NCBI GenBank assembly: GCA_001783565.1
Contig: MFMT01000023.1
Location: 1 to 42,512, forward strand
From: Candidatus Kaiserbacteria bacterium RIFOXYD1_FULL_42_15
GTDB taxonomy: Bacteria; Patescibacteriota; Minisyncoccia; Phycocordibacterales; UBA918
Direction: 5' to 3'
Length of the DNA stretch: 42,512 nucleotides
The notes under the pieces are model-generated. The model was not told the origin of the DNA and searched no databases. It saw only the letters and a program-made list of their open reading frames with translations. This document shows, piece after piece, positions 2,130 through 41,878 of the stretch (the stretch's first letter is position 1; every line of letters begins with the position of its first letter). Position numbers and translations under genes: made by a program.

Positions 2130-2312
2130 CGGACGACGTGGATTGCTCAGCTCTGACTCGCAAAGACGACGAAGACGGATGGTGTGGATTGCCGCGCTCC
2201 CGCTCGCAAAGACGGACGATGGTGGTTTATGTCGAGCGTTGACGTCTTTGCGAGTCATTACACCACAGTGGAATGACGTGGCAATCCATGACGGACGTGG
2301 ATTGCCACGTTC
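2130..2312. repeat. cluster A of the GTGGATTGC-N-CTCGCAAAGACG inverted-repeat family
   Basis: Units lie at 2138-2168 (+), 2184-2214 (+) and 2243-2289 (-, 47-nt long form), with a half unit at 2297-2306. The same module recurs at five other intergenic loci. Confidence 0.85.
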
Positions 2313-3856: not shown

Positions 3857-6727
3857 ATGCATAAAAAAATCAATCACCAAGAAATTGAAGCAAAGTGGCA
3901 AAAGCAGTGGGCAAATAGCGCGATCTATCACACTACTGAAAATCCTGACAAACCAAAAACCTTCGTGCTCGACATGTTTCCTTATCCATCGGGAGAAGGT
4001 CTTCATGTTGGACATCCCAAAGGATATATTGCCACCGACATCTACTCTCGTTTCAAACGCATGACGGGACATGAAGTACTTCACCCAATGGGATGGGATG
4101 CTTTTGGCTTACCGGCCGAGAACTACGCCATCAAGAATAAAGTACATCCCCGAGTGGCAGTAGAAAAAAATGTTGCGCGCTTCAAGGAACAGCTTGGTGT
4201 TCTTGGTTTTGATTATGATTGGGATAGAGAAATAAATACTACCGACCCTGCCTACTATAAATGGACGCAGTGGATTTTTCTACAACTGTTTAAAAAGGGG
4301 TTGGCTTATGAGTCGTATGAACCTATCAACTGGTGCCCTGGTTGTCAGACAGGATTGGCAAACGAGGATCTCGAGAGTGATGGCACTTGTGAGCGTTGCG
4401 GTAGTGTAGTTGAAAAGAGACCGATGCGTCAGTGGGTATTAAAGATTCGTGAATATGCGGACCGAATGCTCGATGACCTAGACATGCTTGAGTGGCCAGA
4501 ACATATCAAAGAAGCTCAGCGTAATTGGATAGGCAGGTCAAAAGGAGCAGAGATAGATTTCAAACTTTTCTCACCTAGGACATCCGATGTCCTAGGTGAG
4601 AATGAAGAAATTGGCGAAGTTACAGTTTTTACGACTCGACCAGATACTCTCTACGGGGCGACTTATTTAGTGCTGGCTCCCGAACATCCATTTATAGAAA
4701 ATGAGATAGAGAAAATTGAAAATAGAAAAGAAGTGGATGATTACATTGCTAAAGCTAAACAAAAAAATGAACAAGATCGCCTTGATGCTACCAAAGAAAA
4801 GACTGGGGTGAAATTGGAAGGTGTTACAGCAATCAACCCAGGAAGTGGAGAAGAGATACCGGTATATATTGCGGATTATGTGCTCGCCAGTTATGGCACC
4901 GGCGCCATTATGGCTGTCCCAGCACATGATGAACGTGATTTTGAGTTTGCTACTAAATTCGGTGTTGAGATAAAGCAGGTGGTAGCACCATTCATTAAAG
5001 CTGATGGTGAGGACTCACCCAGAGATGGTCTTGAGACTTTAGAAAGACCCTGTATAGACATAATTATTGAGCATCCAAATAATGGTACTTTCTTAATACA
5101 GAAAGAAAAGGATGGGGATAGAAACCTTATACATTTTGTAGGAGGCGGTGTTGATGGAGAGGATGATATGACAGCTGTGACTAGAGAGCTCTTAGAGAAG
5201 ACAGGATTTTCCGAATTTGAATTTATGTCGAATAAACCAGTATTTACTACAAAATCCATTGGTTATCGTCATAGTAAGAACAAGAATCAGCAAGGCGTTA
5301 GTAATTTTTATCACATTAAACTAACTGGTCTGGGGCAGGTACGTTCGGAGATAGAAGATGGTAAACATACAGTTGAGTGGCTGACGAGAGAAGAGATTAC
5401 AAAACAAATAACCTGGGCCTGGCATGCAAGATCTTGGGCTGCCTTGAATGGAGAAATGGTATCCACCAATTTGGGAGTTTTAGTAAATTCTGGAGAATTT
5501 GACGGAATGAATTCAGAGGAAGCTAAGAAAGCTATCGTTGAAAAAGTTGGTGGGCGGATGACTAATACTTATAAAATTCGTGATTGGGTGTTTTCACGTC
5601 AGCGTTATTGGGGAGAGCCAATTCCGATTGTTCATTGTGAGAAATGTGGACCAGTAGCTGTTCCTGAAGATCAATTGCCAATAACTCTACCAGAAGTCGA
5701 ACGCTACGAGCCGGCTGGAGACGGACAGTCGCCACTCTCAACTATTCCCGACTGGGTCAACACCACTTGTCCGCAGTGTGGAGAAGCAGGCAAGCGCGAG
5801 ACCAACACAATGCCACAGTGGGCGGGCTCGTCTTGGTACTACCTACGCTACATGGATCCAAAAAATGACCGAGAGCTAGTATCAAAGGAACGTGAAAAAT
5901 ATTGGGCACCGGTTGATATTTACGTTGGCGGTGACCATGCCGTGCGCCACCTTATTTACGCGCGGTTCTGGCATAAATTCTTGTATGACATTGGTGTTGT
6001 ATCTACCGTAGAACCATTCCAACGACTCGAATTCCTTGGTTTTATTCTAGCTGAAGACGGACGAAAAATGAGTAAGCGGTGGGGAAATGTTATCAATCCT
6101 GACGACATTGTGGCGTTAGTGGGGGCAGACAGTTTGCGTGTCTATGAAATGTTCATGGGTCCGTTTGAAAATACTATCGCCTGGTCCAAAGACGGACTGG
6201 CGGGGGCCTGCCGTTTCTTGGAACGAGTTAATGGATTAAGTGCCCACCTGACTGACAATGAATCAGAATCAGTACAGAGACAACTTCATAAGACTATTAG
6301 GAAGGTGGTCGAAGATATTGAAAGCTTCAAATTCAACACGGCCGTCAGTGCCATGATGATATTTATTAATGAAGCGGAAAAGAATGGGTTGTCACAAAAG
6401 ACTTTTGAGCAATTCTTGCAAATTCTGGCACCATTTGCACCACACTTGACTGAGGAACTTTGGCAAGAACTCGGTCACAGCAACTCCATTCATCTGGAGT
6501 CGTTCCCTGTCGCAGACGAGGAATTAGCCAAGGACACAACAGTTGAGATTGGAGTTCAGATTAATGGCAAACTACGTGGCAGTATTGAGGTAGCTCCTGA
6601 TGCCCCGGAGAGTACTGTAACCGACATGGCCAAGGGCAATAGTGTAATCGCCAAGTACCTTGATCAGGCGGAGATTAAGAAAGTGGTCTACGTACCCGGA
6701 CGCATTCTTAATTTCATTATTAATTAG
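3857..6727 (+). CDS. leuS: leucine--tRNA ligase with an extra Nudix-like inserted domain
   Basis: 956 aa. It has the HIGH motif (HVGH), the CP1 editing motifs TTRPDT and GTGAIMAVPAHDERD, KMSKR, and WYYLRY. An extra ~140 aa lies between EFATKFGVEIKQVV and GVLVNSGEFDG. Confidence 0.95.
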   Translation: MHKKINHQEIEAKWQKQWANSAIYHTTENPDKPKTFVLDMFPYPSGEGLHVGHPKGYIATDIYSRFKRMTGHEVLHPMGWDAFGLPAENYAIKNKVHPRVAVEKNVARFKEQLGVLGFDYDWDREINTTDPAYYKWTQWIFLQLFKKGLAYESYEPINWCPGCQTGLANEDLESDGTCERCGSVVEKRPMRQWVLKIREYADRMLDDLDMLEWPEHIKEAQRNWIGRSKGAEIDFKLFSPRTSDVLGENEEIGEVTVFTTRPDTLYGATYLVLAPEHPFIENEIEKIENRKEVDDYIAKAKQKNEQDRLDATKEKTGVKLEGVTAINPGSGEEIPVYIADYVLASYGTGAIMAVPAHDERDFEFATKFGVEIKQVVAPFIKADGEDSPRDGLETLERPCIDIIIEHPNNGTFLIQKEKDGDRNLIHFVGGGVDGEDDMTAVTRELLEKTGFSEFEFMSNKPVFTTKSIGYRHSKNKNQQGVSNFYHIKLTGLGQVRSEIEDGKHTVEWLTREEITKQITWAWHARSWAALNGEMVSTNLGVLVNSGEFDGMNSEEAKKAIVEKVGGRMTNTYKIRDWVFSRQRYWGEPIPIVHCEKCGPVAVPEDQLPITLPEVERYEPAGDGQSPLSTIPDWVNTTCPQCGEAGKRETNTMPQWAGSSWYYLRYMDPKNDRELVSKEREKYWAPVDIYVGGDHAVRHLIYARFWHKFLYDIGVVSTVEPFQRLEFLGFILAEDGRKMSKRWGNVINPDDIVALVGADSLRVYEMFMGPFENTIAWSKDGLAGACRFLERVNGLSAHLTDNESESVQRQLHKTIRKVVEDIESFKFNTAVSAMMIFINEAEKNGLSQKTFEQFLQILAPFAPHLTEELWQELGHSNSIHLESFPVADEELAKDTTVEIGVQINGKLRGSIEVAPDAPESTVTDMAKGNSVIAKYLDQAEIKKVVYVPGRILNFIIN

Positions 6728-6760
6728 TTTGTTTGAATAAAGTACCTGTGCTAGTTAAAC

Positions 6761-6980
6761 GTGGATTGCCACGTCACTCCGCTATCGCTCCATTCCTCGC
6801 AAAGACGGCCAGCGTAGCTGACCGTCGACGACTAAAACTAAAGTTTTAGTCGTCTTTACGAGTGAAACGCAGCAATCCACGTCGTCGTCCCGTCTGTCTT
6901 TGCCTGCCTGCCCTGCATGCCATGCCTGCGCATGCAGGGCAGGCATGGCATGCAGGCGAGTGGCAACGAAGCAATTTACG
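6761..6980. repeat. cluster B of the GTGGATTGC-N-CTCGCAAAGACG family
   Basis: Units are 6761-6807 (+, long form) and 6851-6880 (-). A degenerate minus unit at 6891-6979 has a nested GC-rich palindrome. A perfect 12-bp hairpin lies at 6827-6854 between the first two units. Confidence 0.85.
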
Positions 6981-7093
6981 TTTGATTAACATTGGTGTCT
7001 ATAACTATGTTGACGTATATCAATTCGCATGATATAAATACACTCACGCATTGAGCTACAAAACTCACCCATAGATTAAATACCCTTAATATT

Positions 7094-8119
7094 ATGATTT
7101 CATTCAAACCAAAACAAGTTACAAAAAAATTGCTTTCAGCTCTACCTGAACGCGCTCGTGATGTTCTCACCAAACGCTATGGTCTTGGCCAAGATAATGA
7201 AACTTACACTCTTGAATCAATTGGTCAGACTTATGGAATCACTCGAGAACGAGTACGACAGATTGAAAACTATGGTATTGCCGCTATTCGTAAATCCGCC
7301 ATTTATACAGAAAATACGGCTATGTTTGAAGAATTACGTAGTCTTATTAAACAGCTAGGTAACGGTGTTGTGGCTGAAAAAGTTTTACTTGATTCCTTAA
7401 CTAAGGATGTTGTCATTCGTAATCACCTTTATTTTCTTTTGATAATTGGTGATGCCTTCTCTAAGGGTAAAGAAAACCCTCTCTATACTAGCCGTTGGTT
7501 TACAGAAAAGAAAATTGCTGAAATAGTTGAAAAAGCACTCAAGAATGTACATGGTACTCTCAATCGAGATGACTTAATTAGTGAGCAGGAAATTCTAAAT
7601 CGTTTTCGTAATGAATTGATTGAAATCGCCGATAAACAGGACGATGAAACATTAAAGCGATGGCTGATGATTTCCAAACAAATTGGTCAAAACCCTCTTG
7701 GAGACTGGGGTCCAGCTGATAGTCCCAACGTCCGAGTAAAGGGAATTCGTGATTATGCTTATTTAGCGGTGAAGCGACATGGATCGCCAATGCATTTCAA
7801 GGAGGTTTCGGTAGCCATTAGTGATTTATTTAACCATAATGCACATGTAGCTACCACTCACAATGAACTGATCAAAGATGCACGCTTTGTTCTAGTGGGA
7901 CGTGGTCTCTATGCTCTAACTGAATGGGGATATACCGCCGGAGTGGTTAAGGATGTTTTGCGTGAAATTTTGCAAGCTGAAGGACCGCTTTCTCGTGAAG
8001 AATTGATTGATAAAGTACGTAAGGAACGATATGTTAAAGACAACACTATTGTGGTAAATCTACAGGATGCCAATCTTTTCAAGCATTTAAGTAACGGTTC
8101 TTATACACTAGCTGAATAA
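7094..8119 (+). CDS. sigma-70 region-4-like HTH plus HARE-HTH domain protein
   Basis: 341 aa. The N-terminus LPERARDVLTKRYGL...TLESIGQTYGITRERVRQIENYGI resembles sigma70 region 4. A later segment (GSPMHFKEV...DARFVLVGRGLYALTEWGY) resembles the HARE-HTH/RpoE N-terminal domain. Confidence 0.55.
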   Translation: MISFKPKQVTKKLLSALPERARDVLTKRYGLGQDNETYTLESIGQTYGITRERVRQIENYGIAAIRKSAIYTENTAMFEELRSLIKQLGNGVVAEKVLLDSLTKDVVIRNHLYFLLIIGDAFSKGKENPLYTSRWFTEKKIAEIVEKALKNVHGTLNRDDLISEQEILNRFRNELIEIADKQDDETLKRWLMISKQIGQNPLGDWGPADSPNVRVKGIRDYAYLAVKRHGSPMHFKEVSVAISDLFNHNAHVATTHNELIKDARFVLVGRGLYALTEWGYTAGVVKDVLREILQAEGPLSREELIDKVRKERYVKDNTIVVNLQDANLFKHLSNGSYTLAE

Positions 8120-13261: not shown

Positions 13262-13386
13262 CAAACGTGGATTGCTTCACTCCGTTCGCCTGTCTGCCAT
13301 GCCTGCGCATGCAGGGCAGACAGGCAAAGACGGTTGTCTGTTCTGCCTGTTCGTCTTTGCGAGGAGCTTGTGACGAAGCAATCCAG
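13262..13386. repeat. cluster C of the GTGGATTGC-N-C(A/T)..GCAAAGACG family
   Basis: Units are 13267-13332 (+) and 13352-13386 (-). The + unit carries the GC-rich core CTGCCATGCCTGCGCATGCAGGGCAG, also seen in cluster B. Confidence 0.85.
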
Positions 13387-13456
13387 AGTCTAATAAGTTA
13401 AATCTTTCCAAGAATTGTGGGTGGTAATTGGTGAAGGTATCGGTATAATGATTGAT

Positions 13457-14251
13457 ATGGCTGATTATACAAAAAAATATAACCCAAATAGAAGTACTGA
13501 GTGGAATTACGGCGGAGACAAGTGGCGACTCTCTCGCTCTAAGATTGATTTTTTTGTTGAATGTCCTCGTTGTTTTTACCTTGATAATAAACTCGGTACT
13601 AAACGTCCCGGCTTTCCATCATTTAACTTGAATCTTGCCGTTGACGAGCTTTTCAAAAAAGAGTTTGATGTTCACCGAAAAAATAAGACCCCCCACCCAG
13701 TAATGGAGCAATACAAAATAAAGGCAGTTCCTTTTCAACATGAAAAAATGGATGTTTGGCGTGACAACTTTGTCGGTATCGAATACGCCCATCCCGAGAC
13801 TGGCATGACCGTTTCAGGCGCAATTGACGATATCTGGATAACGCCGTCCGGAAAACTTATCATTGTGGATTATAAATCAACCTCAAAAGACGGTTCGATT
13901 ACAGAACTGTCAGACAGCCCTTGGGACCAACAATACAAGCGTCAGCTCGGCGTTTACAAATGGCTGCTGGAGAAAAACGGCTTCAAGGTCGAGGATGTCG
14001 GTTACCTAGTGTATGCCAATGCCAGTAAAGATGAGGTTGGTTTTGATAACAAACTGGTTTTTGAAACCACCATGGTCCCTGTCGAGGCAGAAACGGAATG
14101 GATTGAGCCAACTTTGAAAAAAATTAAGACCTGTCTTGATGACGAACACCTACCCGCTATAGGGGAGAAGTGTGAATTTTGTCCCTATCGTGAGGCCTGT
14201 GGCAAAAAACTGCAACATATCCACGCACGCCAATTAGCTCAAAGTAAATAA
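13457..14251 (+). CDS. PD-(D/E)XK nuclease, Cas4/RecB-like, with a 4-Cys cluster
   Basis: The ATG at 13457 lies 7 nt after TATAAT (13444-13449). It has an N-terminal Cys (CPRCFYL), the core DDIWITPSGKLIIVDYKS, and a C-terminal CEFCPYREAC. Confidence 0.7.
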   Translation: MADYTKKYNPNRSTEWNYGGDKWRLSRSKIDFFVECPRCFYLDNKLGTKRPGFPSFNLNLAVDELFKKEFDVHRKNKTPHPVMEQYKIKAVPFQHEKMDVWRDNFVGIEYAHPETGMTVSGAIDDIWITPSGKLIIVDYKSTSKDGSITELSDSPWDQQYKRQLGVYKWLLEKNGFKVEDVGYLVYANASKDEVGFDNKLVFETTMVPVEAETEWIEPTLKKIKTCLDDEHLPAIGEKCEFCPYREACGKKLQHIHARQLAQSK

Positions 14252-38431: not shown

Positions 38432-38493
38432 AAAATCTAGGAATAGATTCAAGTGCTGTGGCCCGCCCCGTTAGAAACTATGTTTCAAACAGG

Positions 38494-38739
38494 GCTCGCA
38501 AAAACGACGTTAACGAAAACGTGGATTGCCACGTTGCGACTCGCAAAGACGACGGTGGGTATGAGATGTTTATTGCGTCGTCTTCGCGAGGAGGGAGCTC
38601 GCAAGCGAGTGACGTGGCGATCCATGGTGGTTTGACGGTGTGGATTGCTTCGTTGCGACTCGCAAAGACGGCGTTGACGAACGACGTGGCAATCCATAAT
38701 GTACGAAAACGTGGATTGCCTAATAACCTCACGAAGACG
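38494..38739. repeat. cluster D of the GTGGATTGC-N-CTCGCAAAGACG family
   Basis: Units are 38521-38551 (+), 38579-38625 (-), 38640-38670 (+) and 38711-38739 (+). Half units lie at 38494-38505 and 38689-38697. Confidence 0.85.
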
Positions 38740-38780
38740 TATTTGATGCGGTCATTAAAAAAATGAGGTACAATATAAAA

Positions 38781-40487: not shown

Positions 40488-40506
40488 CGGTTGAATAGTT
40501 GATTAT

Positions 40507-40690
40507 GTCGTTGCGAGTCGCAACGTGGCAATCCACAGCGAAGGCAGACGTGGATCGCTTCGTTGCGACTCGCGAAGACGAAGTTGACCGGACGGATATG
40601 GATTGCCACCTGCCGCGCTTCGCTCGCAGCTAAAGGCGCTCGCAAAGACGGACGTGACAGACGTGGATTGCTTCGTGTGCTCGCAAAGAC
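40507..40690. repeat. cluster E of the GTGGATTGC-N-CTCGCAAAGACG family
   Basis: Units are 40507-40536 (-), 40550-40580 (+), 40598-40650 (+, with an internal duplication of the CGCTCGCA arm) and 40663-40690 (+). Confidence 0.85.
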
Positions 40691-40777
40691 TCATGTGGTG
40701 GATGTAGCGATATGCGATCAACCAGCAATACTCATTTCGAAAACTAAATTAAATACCAAACATGATAGAATTACTGT

Positions 40778-41612: not shown

Positions 41613-41878
41613 GTGGACTGCTTCGCGAGCTTGCGGTGACGACTTACTTTCGTCTTTACGAGGAATGGAGCGATAGCGGAATGACGTGGCAATCCATGGT
41701 AATGACGAACGGTGTGGATTGCTTCCTTACAGGAACTGTTCAGGTTGTCACTATTTTTGCAAAATAGCAGGCAACCTCTTGCGAAGCTCCAAGTGTTCGC
41801 TTCTCACGTGCGACTCGCAAAGACGACGAGGAGGGGCGATGGTGAGACGGATTGTTGTGACAGGGTTGGGCAATCCAT
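41613..41878. repeat. cluster F of the GTGGATTGC-N-CTCGCAAAGACG family
   Basis: There is a degenerate unit at 41613-41643. Unit 41651-41697 (-) matches 44 of 47 nt of the reverse complement of unit 6761-6807. Unit 41714-41825 (+) has its arms separated by an ~80-nt insert. Half units lie at 41847-41857 and 41870-41878. Confidence 0.85.

What the first reader, a model, noticed from the sequence alone, without database searches (positions are those of the whole stretch)
6761..6980. Repeat cluster B: 120-bp composite palindrome plus a nested GC-rich palindromic core downstream of leuS
Units 6761-6807 (+, long form) and 6851-6880 (-) face each other. Between them is a perfect 12-bp stem hairpin (GACGACTAAAAC-TAAA-GTTTTAGTCGTC, 6827-6854), giving a composite palindrome of about 120 bp. 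A third, degenerate minus unit (6891-6979) carries an insertion with overlapping perfect palindromes: CTGCCCTGCATGC...GCATGCAGGGCAG and CCTGCATGCCATGCC...GGCATGGCATGCAGG. The same CATGCCTGCGCATGCAGGGCAG core recurs in cluster C, 6.4 kb away. Unit 6761-6807 matches 44 of 47 nt of the reverse complement of unit 41651-41697, 35 kb away. That level of identity implies recent copying or strong constraint.
Basis: seen in the sequence. Interest (0 to 1): 0.6.

Follow-up and report, generated by a model that had tools for sequence, protein, structure and literature searches.

The report
Ssn-type hairpin repeat array after leuS
The palindromic cluster after leuS is one array of a genome-wide family of short DNA hairpin repeats of a known kind (CGTC-tagged REPs, the targets of small Ssn single-strand-DNA nucleases), and the GC-rich core nested in it is a separate 18-base palindrome that also inserts precisely into genes of other ultra-small bacteria.

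Summary
Cluster B is one of about 114 arrays, holding about 220 units, of one repeat family in this 757-kb Kaiserbacteria (CPR) genome.

- **What the units are.** Read on the other strand they are CGTC-(T/A)TTGC...GCAAT-CCAY. That is the architecture of CGTC-tagged REPs (Di Nocera 2013) and of NTS/SRM repeats of Ssn GIY-YIG ssDNA nucleases (Chenal 2025).
- **The nuclease gene.** The same genome carries one Ssn-type gene (contig C22), bracketed by these units. Its homologues elsewhere are bracketed by canonical NTS or by the same TTGC-type units.
- **Insertion.** The leuS-downstream site is empty in three same-genus relatives, so the array is a lineage-specific gain.
- **Differences from the published kind.** The published SRM search string misses the units. 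Single units fold weakly. They come in 28-, 44- and 50-nt classes.
- **The GC-rich core.** It is an expanded copy of the 18-nt palindrome CCTGCCTGCGCAGGCAGG. This palindrome is multi-copy in scattered CPR genomes, nests in SRM hairpins of different sequence, and is inserted precisely in frame (LPAQAG) in ychF and tig of a Saccharibacteria MAG. I found no paper on it.

The scan has already reported this repeat family in this window (e1-3793370) and Ssn-type hairpins in at least 72 other genomes. Cleavage and transcripts were not tested.

The parts
3857..6727 (+). leuS (956 aa, with a NUDIX insert). Its stop codon lies 33 nt before the array.
   Evidence: Pfam hits tRNA-synt_1_2, tRNA-synt_1, Anticodon_1 and NUDIX; ORF list.
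6761..6807 (-). Unit 1, long (44-nt) class. The CGTC-forward strand is the minus strand: CGTCTTTGCGAGGAATGGAGCGATAGCGGAGTGACGTGGCAATCCAC.
   Evidence: Sequence. One of 47 copies of the 44-nt class. Covarying pairs.
6804..6826 (.). Spacer hairpin A: GACGGCCAGC-GTA-GCTGACCGTC. Its left arm overlaps the CGTC end of unit 1.
   Evidence: Recurs in all 7 or more copies of the composite. It shows a compensatory T-A/C-G change and a flipped loop (GTA/TAC).
6827..6854 (.). Spacer hairpin B: perfect 12-bp stem GACGACTAAAAC-TAAA-GTTTTAGTCGTC. Its right arm overlaps the CGTC tag of unit 2.
   Evidence: Also found at C1:11492, C3:86, C4:3472, C22:10439, C28:13621 and C28:4456.
6851..6880 (+). Unit 2, short class, head-to-head with unit 1: CGTCTTTACGAGTGAAACGCAGCAATCCAC.
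6896..6979 (+). Unit 3, a short-class unit (GTCTTTG | CGAGTGGCAACGAAGCAAT-TTAC) split by the 54-nt GC-rich block. The 3' tail is degenerate (TT instead of CC).
   Evidence: Removing 6903-6956 restores a normal short unit with the same middle as C22:6413-6440.
6903..6956 (.). GC-rich block of six 9-mers. It is the 18-nt palindrome P (CCTGCCTGC|GCAGGCAGG, outer right arm altered) with two 18-nt P2 modules (CATGCCTGCGCATGCAGG and its reverse complement) nested at successive centres.
   Evidence: An identical 56-nt block lies at C42:11097-11152. The P family is documented.
7010..7038 (+). TTGACG-17 nt-TATAAA promoter-like site of the downstream gene. In relatives it starts 15-20 nt after the leuS stop.
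   Evidence: Conserved in L011, L012 and L015. The consensus scan did not call it.
7094..8119 (+). Downstream gene with Sigma70_r4 and weak HARE-HTH matches.
13267..13384 (.). Cluster C. A short unit with a 36-nt P+P2 block (13289-13324) at the same position in its tail, followed by an inverted 32-nt unit (13353-13384).
2130..2312 (.). Another array of the same family (cluster 1).
38490..38750 (.). Another array of the same family.
40500..40700 (.). Another array of the same family, including a 50-nt class unit.
41650..41850 (.). Another array. It includes the long unit that is 96% complementary to unit 1.

Best explanation
Cluster B is a head-to-head array of CGTC-tagged palindromic repeats, that is Ssn-related motifs of the NTS/dRS3 type. 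It was gained in this lineage between the leuS stop codon and the promoter of the next gene.

Each unit has a conserved 5' tag CGTC, a short basal stem (T/A)TTGC/GCAAT, a variable interior that defines the 28-, 44- and 50-nt classes, and a 3' tail CCA(C/T).

By analogy with Neisseria SsnA, the CGTC-forward strand folds when it is single-stranded. That can happen during replication, repair or DNA uptake. The folded strand is then bound by the genome's own 96-aa Ssn-family GIY-YIG nuclease (contig C22:10866-11153) and nicked a few bases 5' of the tag.

What is shown here: the repeat anatomy, covariation of the stems, genome-wide spread, the empty orthologous site, the nuclease gene bracketed by the repeats, and its homology to NTS-bracketed genes.

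What is inferred: binding and cleavage, the biological role (control of recombination of incoming ssDNA; ComEC and DprA are present), and how new copies arise.

The nested GC-rich core is not part of the unit. It is an expanded copy of a separate 18-nt palindrome (P) sitting just inside the basal stem, a position where the published enzyme tolerates extensions.
For: **Family.**
- There are 221-227 regex hits, and 158 exact matches against 0 for the reversed-pattern control.
- Only 14% of hits lie in crude long ORFs, which cover 69% of the genome.
- Neighbouring units are in opposite orientation 88 times and in the same orientation 25 times, with long and short classes alternating.

**Base pairing.**
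- The basal pair switches T-A to C-G together: Watson-Crick in 70/71 and 44/47 copies, against 60.8 and 27.7 expected.
- Apical pairs use 2-3 Watson-Crick types: 65-67 of 71 and 44-45 of 47, against 36-48 and 19-23 expected.
- Exceptions are 20 C.A against 5 G.T on the 'unit' strand. They are therefore wobbles on the CGTC-forward strand.

**Likeness to NTS.**
- NTS reads CGTC-ATTCCCGCG..CGCGGGAAT-CC and this family reads CGTC-TTTGC..GCAAT-CC.
- The CGTC tag, the A/T start of the stem, the CCA tail and head-to-head dimers with structured spacers are the features of CGTC REPs.

**Nuclease gene.**
- A single-domain GIY-YIG ORF of 96 aa lies on C22. Units lie 33 nt upstream and 7 nt downstream, with more beyond.
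- Y9, Y20 and E67 have the spacing of the catalytic Y6, Y17 and E64 of SsnA.
- It is 60% identical (E 1e-29) to a Povalibacter gene bracketed by 8 canonical NTS, and 45% identical to a Sphingorhabdus gene bracketed by NTS.
- It is 54-72% identical to genes bracketed by TTGC-type units in a same-genus genome and Methylobacterium, and followed by them in Campbellbacteria.

**Co-occurrence.**
- Among 41 relatives, the close homologue is found only in a repeat-bearing genome.
- Among 251 Patescibacteria, 11 of 12 genomes with 5 or more units have an Ssn homologue (E <= 1e-15), against 48 of 207 with none. Units abut the gene in at least 11 of them.

**Insertion.**
- G001, G018 and G024 have leuS stop, then 15-20 nt, then TTGACG..TATAAAT.

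**Tolerance of the interior.**
- The Ssn paper reports that loop identity is dispensable and that extensions are tolerated.
Against: - No biochemical data exist for this enzyme or motif.
- The published degenerate SRM string finds only 3 matches in the genome.
- Single units are not stable hairpins as ssDNA (z +0.1 to -1.8, against -4.8 for NTS). The strong fold of the cluster comes from unit-to-unit pairing, the spacer hairpins and the GC block.
- Three repeat-bearing relatives (G001 at 76% complete, G024, G029) show no close Ssn homologue.
- One Patescibacteria genome with 12 units has no Ssn homologue.
- Direct comparison with N. meningitidis SsnA was not made. N. lactamica NS19 gave no hit.
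- Kin are not independent, so the co-occurrence counts overstate the support.
Confidence: 0.8

Rival explanations
1. The array is a REP/BIME-type array mobilised by a RAYT or IS200-like Y1 transposase. The units would be REPs recognised and copied by one of the genome's HUH tyrosine transposases.
For: The architecture is BIME-like, with two unit types in alternating orientation. The genome has five Y1_Tnp matches. The Ssn paper itself notes the parallel with REP/RAYT.
Against: No unit lies within 2.7 kb of any Y1_Tnp gene. The RAYT-like gene in the window is bracketed by its own, unrelated 27-nt palindrome (I5). The units carry the CGTC tag, not GTAG. The IS200-like TnpA on C21 has no related hairpins. 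The GIY-YIG gene is the one bracketed by the units.
Confidence: 0.05
2. The array acts mainly at the RNA level, as a 3'-UTR structure of leuS. It would serve as a terminator, RNase barrier or insulator between leuS and the next promoter.
For: It sits directly after the leuS stop and before a conserved promoter. The fold is very stable. CGTC/GTAG REPs are often downstream of ORFs and have been proposed to act as RNA.
Against: There is no T-run terminator and no Rfam hit. Units occur equally on both strands (78 and 80). Three same-genus relatives do without any such element at this site. Covarying pairs show almost no G.U-type intermediates on the mRNA-sense 'unit' strand. This reading is not exclusive of the main explanation.
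Confidence: 0.1
3. The roughly 145-bp composite (unit, hairpin A, hairpin B, inverted unit) is itself a MITE. The units would be its terminal inverted repeats, moved by an unidentified transposase.
For: The composite recurs 7 or more times at 83-98% identity. The orthologous site is empty.
Against: The flanking units differ in class from copy to copy (44, 32, 28, 26 and 50 nt). Outer boundaries are not constant, and no target-site duplication is seen. Most units occur without this spacer.
Confidence: 0.05

Closest known systems
NTS / Ssn-related motifs with SsnA GIY-YIG ssDNA nucleases (Chenal et al., Nat Commun 2025, PMC11893778)
   Same: Oriented hairpin repeats with a CGTC 5' tag and a C-rich 3' tail. 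Hundreds of copies, mostly intergenic and clustered. A 94-96-aa single-domain GIY-YIG gene is bracketed by its own repeats. The protein is homologous to NTS-bracketed genes (E 1e-22 to 1e-29).
   Different: The stem is TTGC/GCAAT, only 4-5 bp, interrupted, with 28/44/50-nt interiors. The published SRM string misses it, and single units fold weakly. The host is a CPR bacterium. 'Patescibacteria' and 'candidate' do not occur in the paper's main text. Activity is untested.
CGTC-tagged REPs, families CGTC-1 to -4, including Neisseria dRS3 and Rickettsia RPE-4/-6 (Di Nocera et al. 2013, PMC3733652); Neisseria NIME arrays
   Same: CGTC tag, A/T at the first stem positions, 4-nt apical loops, CCA tail. 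Mostly head-to-head dimers, with spacers carrying two stem-loops. Nesting with other palindromes occurs.
   Different: Those families have contiguous 8-9-bp stems. They were reported in 5 phyla and mostly in Alphaproteobacteria. No dedicated enzyme was known in 2013.
E. coli REP/BIME with RAYT (TnpA-REP)
   Same: Mosaic arrays of two unit types in alternating orientation with defined linkers. The cognate gene is bracketed by its own repeats.
   Different: Those have a GTAG tag and a HUH Y1 transposase. Here the tag is CGTC and the associated gene is a GIY-YIG nuclease.
Rickettsia palindromic elements (in-frame selfish palindromes), for the 18-nt P module only
   Same: A palindromic repeat inserted in frame in conserved genes and tolerated as a peptide loop (LPAQAG). 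The taxonomic distribution is patchy.
   Different: P is 18 nt (RPEs, from my own knowledge, are roughly 100-150 bp). It is a perfect palindrome with no CGTC tag or CCA tail, and it nests inside other hairpin repeats.

Membership tests
Ssn-related motif (SRM/NTS) + Ssn system | Hairpin repeat made directional by conserved non-palindromic flanks (GTC/CGTC 5', C after the palindrome) | tested here: met
   The consensus is CGTC-(T/A)TTGC...GCAAT-CCA(C/T) across all size classes. In unit 3 of cluster B the 3' CC is replaced by TT.
Ssn-related motif (SRM/NTS) + Ssn system | Fits the published degenerate search string HGTCWYN(0-2)YYVSBRHN(0-5)WNVSBRGN(0-2)RNCYNB | tested here: not met
   There are only 3 matches in 757 kb and none in the ssn locus. 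The same regex finds 8 motifs around the Povalibacter homologue.
Ssn-related motif (SRM/NTS) + Ssn system | The unit forms a hairpin as single-stranded DNA | tested here: inconclusive
   Covariation supports a 4-5-bp basal stem plus 2-3 apical pairs. The predicted stability of single units is no better than shuffles (z +0.1 to -1.8, against -4.8 for NTS).
Ssn-related motif (SRM/NTS) + Ssn system | Single-domain GIY-YIG gene of about 95 aa in the same genome, flanked on both sides by the repeats | tested here: met
   The gene is at C22:10866-11153. Units lie 33 nt upstream and 7 nt downstream, and 9 units lie within 600 nt. The same layout is seen in G018 and Methylobacterium, with units downstream only in Campbellbacteria, and units abut the gene in at least 11 other CPR genomes.
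Ssn-related motif (SRM/NTS) + Ssn system | The protein belongs to the Ssn (cd10448) clade | tested here: inconclusive
   It is 45-60% identical (E 1e-22 to 1e-29) to genes bracketed by canonical NTS. The catalytic Y/Y/E spacing is conserved. Pfam gives only GIY-YIG and NCBIfam nothing specific. CDD and N. meningitidis SsnA itself were not compared.
Ssn-related motif (SRM/NTS) + Ssn system | ssDNA-specific, strand-specific binding, with cleavage a few nt 5' of the motif | not testable with these tools
   This needs purified protein and oligonucleotides.
CGTC-tagged REPs (Di Nocera 2013) | Terminal CGTC/TGTC tag, stem starting with A/T pairs, CCA tail | tested here: met
   consensus compared with the family description.
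CGTC-tagged REPs (Di Nocera 2013) | Contiguous stem of 8-9 bp with a 4-5-nt loop | tested here: not met
   The stem is 4-5 bp, followed by an internal loop and 2-3 apical pairs with a 4-nt loop.
CGTC-tagged REPs (Di Nocera 2013) | Predominantly head-to-head dimers | tested here: met
   88 opposite-orientation against 25 same-orientation neighbours. Units 1 and 2 of cluster B face each other with their CGTC ends.
REP/BIME with RAYT | GTAG tag, and a RAYT gene flanked by the repeats | tested here: not met
   There is no GTAG tag. The five Y1_Tnp genes are at least 2.7 kb from any unit. The RAYT-like gene in the window has its own palindrome.
Intrinsic terminator | GC-rich stem followed by a T-run | tested here: not met
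   No terminator-like sites in 6500-7300.
Described RNA families (Rfam 15) | Match at the gathering score | tested here: not met
   No matches in the window.

The most novel reading that the evidence does not exclude
The GC-rich core is a copy of an undescribed, tag-less 18-nt perfect palindrome (P, CCTGCCTGCGCAGGCAGG). P behaves as a minimal insertion element spreading among distant CPR lineages.

- It lands precisely, without disrupting the frame, in conserved genes.
- It lands inside the hairpins of unrelated Ssn-type repeats.
- It lands at the exact centre of earlier copies of itself (18, then 36, then 54 nt, as in cluster B).

It is presumably moved in trans by an enzyme that acts on hairpin DNA, and that enzyme is not yet identified.
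Probability: 0.45. Interest if true: 0.65.

Novelty: new variant of a known kind. Interest (0 to 1): 0.42.

Why it matters
For the array itself the gain is modest.

- The Ssn/CGTC-REP system extends into ultra-small CPR genomes. 29% of 251 sampled Patescibacteria carry an Ssn homologue.
- A widespread stem type (TTGC/GCAAT) escapes the published search string. It also occurs in Legionella, Methylobacterium and Anaerolineales MAGs. Surveys based on that string therefore undercount the family.
- The variable interiors and weak stems suggest that this enzyme reads mainly the tags plus a 4-5-bp stem. That is useful for anyone mining Ssn enzymes as ssDNA tools.
- About 1% of a 0.76-Mb streamlined genome is given over to these repeats, and they break the assembly (22 of 86 contig ends).

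The P module would matter more if confirmed. An 18-nt element with precise in-frame insertions would be among the smallest mobile DNAs known. It would also give a sequence-defined handle on how hairpin repeats multiply, which is still unexplained for CGTC REPs.

Tried and rejected
- **Rfam** at gathering score found nothing.
- **Terminator and promoter scan** found no terminator in the array.
- **NCBIfam** gave no informative family for the GIY-YIG proteins. PDB sequence search gave only distant UPF0213 and UvrC GIY-YIG domains.
- **RAYT/IS200 link** was rejected.
- **The other two small GIY-YIG genes** (C41, C27) were rejected as cognate. No units adjoin them, and they have no homologue among NTS-bearing loci.
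- **N. lactamica NS19** as a bridge to characterised SsnA gave no hit.
- **A coding reading of the units** (recurrent peptide-like frames) was rejected. Units occur on both strands, in tandem, with covarying stems.
- **A universal target site for P** (WTTG^ / ^CAA) fits this genome and the ychF site but not most copies in other genomes, so it was rejected as a general rule. Flanking direct repeats of 5 nt or more occur at 7 of 52 sites against 1.65 expected. Several of these are paralogous or palindromic hosts, so this is only suggestive.
- **Literature search** for P and LPAQAG returned no papers.

Full report
**1. Observation**

The sequence at 6761-6980 is as described.
- A 47-nt unit lies at 6761-6807 and an inverted 30-nt unit at 6851-6880.
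- A perfect 12-bp hairpin lies at 6827-6854.
- A degenerate third unit lies at 6891-6979 and encloses a 54-nt GC-rich block (6903-6956).

The shared end motifs are far above chance, both in the window (12 against 0.28 expected; 18 against 2.5 expected) and in the genome (163 against about 4; 125 against about 0.2). The cluster folds very strongly as single-stranded DNA on either strand (z -9.3 and -10.2).

**2. The family**

A loose pattern (GGATYGC ... TCGCRARGAC) finds 221-227 units in about 114 arrays. The exact pattern finds 158, and the reversed control finds 0.
- Units fall into length classes of 26-28 nt (104 copies), 43-46 nt (62 copies) and 50-53 nt (18 copies). Both ends are constant and the interior varies.
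- Only 14% of hits lie in crude long ORFs, which cover 69% of the genome. Most of those are spurious frames running through arrays, or false hits.
- Neighbouring units are inverted 88 times and direct 25 times. Long and short classes alternate.
- 22 of 86 contig ends have a unit within 600 nt, so the repeats break the assembly.

**3. Base pairing**

The two ends pair. The head T/C in GGAT[T/C]GC changes together with the tail A/G in GC[A/G]AAGAC. This pair is Watson-Crick in 70 of 71 and 44 of 47 distinct copies, against 60.8 and 27.7 expected if the columns were independent. Two to three apical pairs around a 4-nt loop use two or three Watson-Crick types (first seen by mutual information).

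They are therefore mostly G.T wobbles on the complementary strand, which suggests that strand is the one whose fold matters.

Single units are nevertheless weak hairpins (z +0.1 to -1.8). A canonical NTS folded the same way gives z -4.8. The strong fold of the whole cluster comes from pairing between inverted units, the two spacer hairpins and the GC block.

**4. Identity**

Read on the complementary strand, the unit is CGTC-(T/A)TTGC...GCAAT-CCA(C/T).
- Neisseria NTS is CGTC-ATTCCCGCG..CGCGGGAAT-CC. SsnA binds it only as ssDNA, on one strand, and cuts a few nt upstream. The three bases before the palindrome and the C after it are critical. The loop can be replaced or extended.
- The same architecture was defined in 2013 as CGTC-tagged REPs. 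Its features are the CGTC tag, A/T at the first stem positions, a CCA tail, mostly head-to-head dimers, and sometimes spacers with two stem-loops. Cluster B units 1 and 2 form exactly such a head-to-head dimer.

The published degenerate SRM string, however, matches this genome only 3 times. The reason is that TTGC has a G where the string demands pyrimidines.

**5. The nuclease gene**

The whole genome has four GIY-YIG matches. Three are small ORFs.

Only the one at C22:10866-11153 (96 aa) is embedded in the repeats. Two units end 33 nt upstream, one starts 7 nt downstream, and several more follow. A copy of the cluster-B composite lies about 350 nt upstream.

Evidence that this is an Ssn-family gene:
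- It is 60% identical (E 1e-29) to a Povalibacter uvarum gene bracketed by eight canonical NTS motifs, and 45% identical to a Sphingorhabdus gene bracketed by NTS.
- It is 72% identical to a gene in a same-genus genome and 54% to one in Methylobacterium aerolatum, both bracketed by TTGC-type units. It is 58% identical to one in Campbellbacteria GW2011_OD1_34_28 with TTGC-type units directly downstream.
- It is 52-54% identical to genes in two Legionella-family genomes that hold the same units.
- Y9, Y20 and E67 have the spacing of the SsnA residues whose mutation abolished cleavage.

The other two small GIY-YIG ORFs have no units nearby and no counterpart in NTS loci.

**6. Distribution**

Within 41 relatives the repeat is patchy: 158, 109, 15, 15 and 5 copies in five genomes, and none in 36. 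The close Ssn homologue occurs only in G018, which is one of the five.

In an even sample of 251 Patescibacteria:
- 72 have an Ssn homologue at E <= 1e-15 and 44 have at least one unit.
- 11 of the 12 genomes with 5 or more units have the gene, against 48 of 207 with no unit.
- Units directly abut the gene in at least 11 genomes of different families.

These genomes are related, so the counts are indicative only. G001 (109 units, 76% complete) and G029 (15 units, 99% complete) lack a close homologue.

**7. Empty site**

The leuS-to-next-gene order is conserved in the genus. In G001, G018 and G024 the leuS stop is followed after 15-20 nt by TTGACG-17-TATAAAT. The same promoter-like site lies at 7010-7038 here. 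The roughly 250-nt array is therefore a gain in this lineage. Even the repeat-rich G001 lacks it, so arrays were placed independently after divergence. The flanks are too diverged to see duplications.

**8. The composite**

The spacer with hairpins A and B recurs at 7 or more loci between convergent CGTC ends. It shows a compensatory change in hairpin A and a flipped loop. The units on either side differ in class from copy to copy. Each spacer hairpin overlaps the tag of one unit, so it lies where the Neisseria enzyme cuts. Whether that matters is unknown.

**9. The GC-rich core**

In this genome the block is built from the 18-nt palindrome P (CCTG[C/T]CTGC|GCAGGCAGG), with or without an 18-nt module P2 (CATGCCTGCGCATGCAGG, in either orientation) inserted at its exact centre. 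The insertion repeats recursively, giving 18, 36 and 54 nt.

I classified 26 copies in the tail of short or 50-nt units (between CTCG and CAAAGAC) and 7 in the head of mostly long-class units (GGATTG^). The 26 tail copies sit in 16 different unit variants, 10 of which also exist empty. Both positions are just inside the basal stem. One 'pure' unit, CGTCTTTG-P-CAATCCAC, lies next to ssn (C22:11360).

P is not found in 38 of 40 relatives, and the other two (G029, G038) hold a single copy each. Elsewhere it is multi-copy in scattered CPR genomes: 14 of 401 sampled, with the reversed control at 0.

Contexts in those other genomes:
- P sits inside SRM-type hairpins with at least six different stems. 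One of these lies 65 nt upstream of an ssn homologue.
- In a Saccharibacteria MAG, P sits inside ychF, tig, a methyltransferase gene and at one gene's C-terminus. In each of these it is read as LPAQAG.
- Orthologues of ychF in three relatives, and of tig in five, at about 61-74% amino-acid identity around the site, lack exactly these 18 nt.

P is therefore a genuine, precise insertion. It has no CGTC tag or CCA tail, so by the published rules it is not itself an Ssn substrate. I found no paper on it, no link to the IS200-like transposase, and no universal target site. How it moves is unexplained.

**10. Mechanism and limits**

The most likely working is as in the best explanation: hairpins on the CGTC-forward strand, in ssDNA, are recognised and nicked by the C22 Ssn enzyme.

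A role in limiting recombination of incoming DNA is plausible. ComEC and DprA are present, and natural transformation has been shown in Saccharibacteria (PMC10633639). That role is nonetheless pure inference here.

An added effect on leuS transcription cannot be excluded.

**11. Verdict**

This is a real feature and a known kind (CGTC REP / SRM). It appears here as a sequence and structure variant in a CPR host, now with its cognate gene identified. The scan has reported the same family in this window and Ssn-type hairpins in at least 72 other genomes, so the array by itself is of modest interest. The nested 18-nt palindrome is the less expected part.

Noticed in passing
G000 contigs C43:17399-17449 and C5:22326-22386 (not in window): Two units carry a different nested palindrome, CCCCGTTAGAAAC-ATAG-GTTTCTAACGGGG, in their interior. 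A similar palindrome lies at C21:~7650. In another CPR genome (G045), units carry CTTCAAATTTTTT-CTC-AAAAAATTTGAAG. Unit interiors seem to collect unrelated hairpins.
   Followed up: no
window 40600-40649; 17 further copies genome-wide: The 50-53-nt unit class has a conserved interior, CCTGCCGCGCTTCGCTCGCAGCTAAAGGCG, with an invariant CTAAAGG. Its structure and meaning were not examined.
   Followed up: no
L032-L151 (public contigs): The exact 26-nt Neisseria NTS consensus occurs in more than 120 contigs. These come from Bacteroidota, Chloroflexota, Planctomycetota, Nitrospirota, Acidobacteriota, Gemmatimonadota and many Proteobacteria. Such identity across phyla implies horizontal spread or very strong constraint.
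   Followed up: partly
L152 (Povalibacter uvarum C7:14373-17642): The ssn homologue is bracketed by two alternating SRM types (ATTCCCGCG and ACACCCGCG stems) in opposite orientation. This mirrors the alternation of short and long classes seen here.
   Followed up: no
window 3857-6727 (residues 398-525 of LeuRS): leuS carries a NUDIX domain inside the editing region (Pfam E 4e-8). The scan has already reported this (e1-3793376).
   Followed up: no
window 13415-14251: A PD-(D/E)XK / Cas4-like nuclease gene starts about 30 nt after cluster C.
   Followed up: no
G000 C41:4120-4332 and C27:2959-3147: Two further small GIY-YIG ORFs (84 and 86 aa) belong to other sub-families and have no repeat units around them.
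   Followed up: partly
L272 (G049:C3:78800-79700): The methyltransferase gene with a P insert (GGG-LPAQAG-PEY) has a second, degenerate LAAQAG motif about 90 residues downstream. This may be an older, decayed P copy.
   Followed up: no
G000, all contigs: 22 of 86 contig ends lie within 600 nt of a unit, and 19% of units lie there against 6.8% expected. The missing 16% of the genome may be enriched in such arrays, so copy numbers are lower bounds.
   Followed up: no
G041 (Neisseria lactamica NS19): This genome holds canonical NTS motifs, but a search with the C22 protein found no homologue at E <= 0.001.
   Followed up: no
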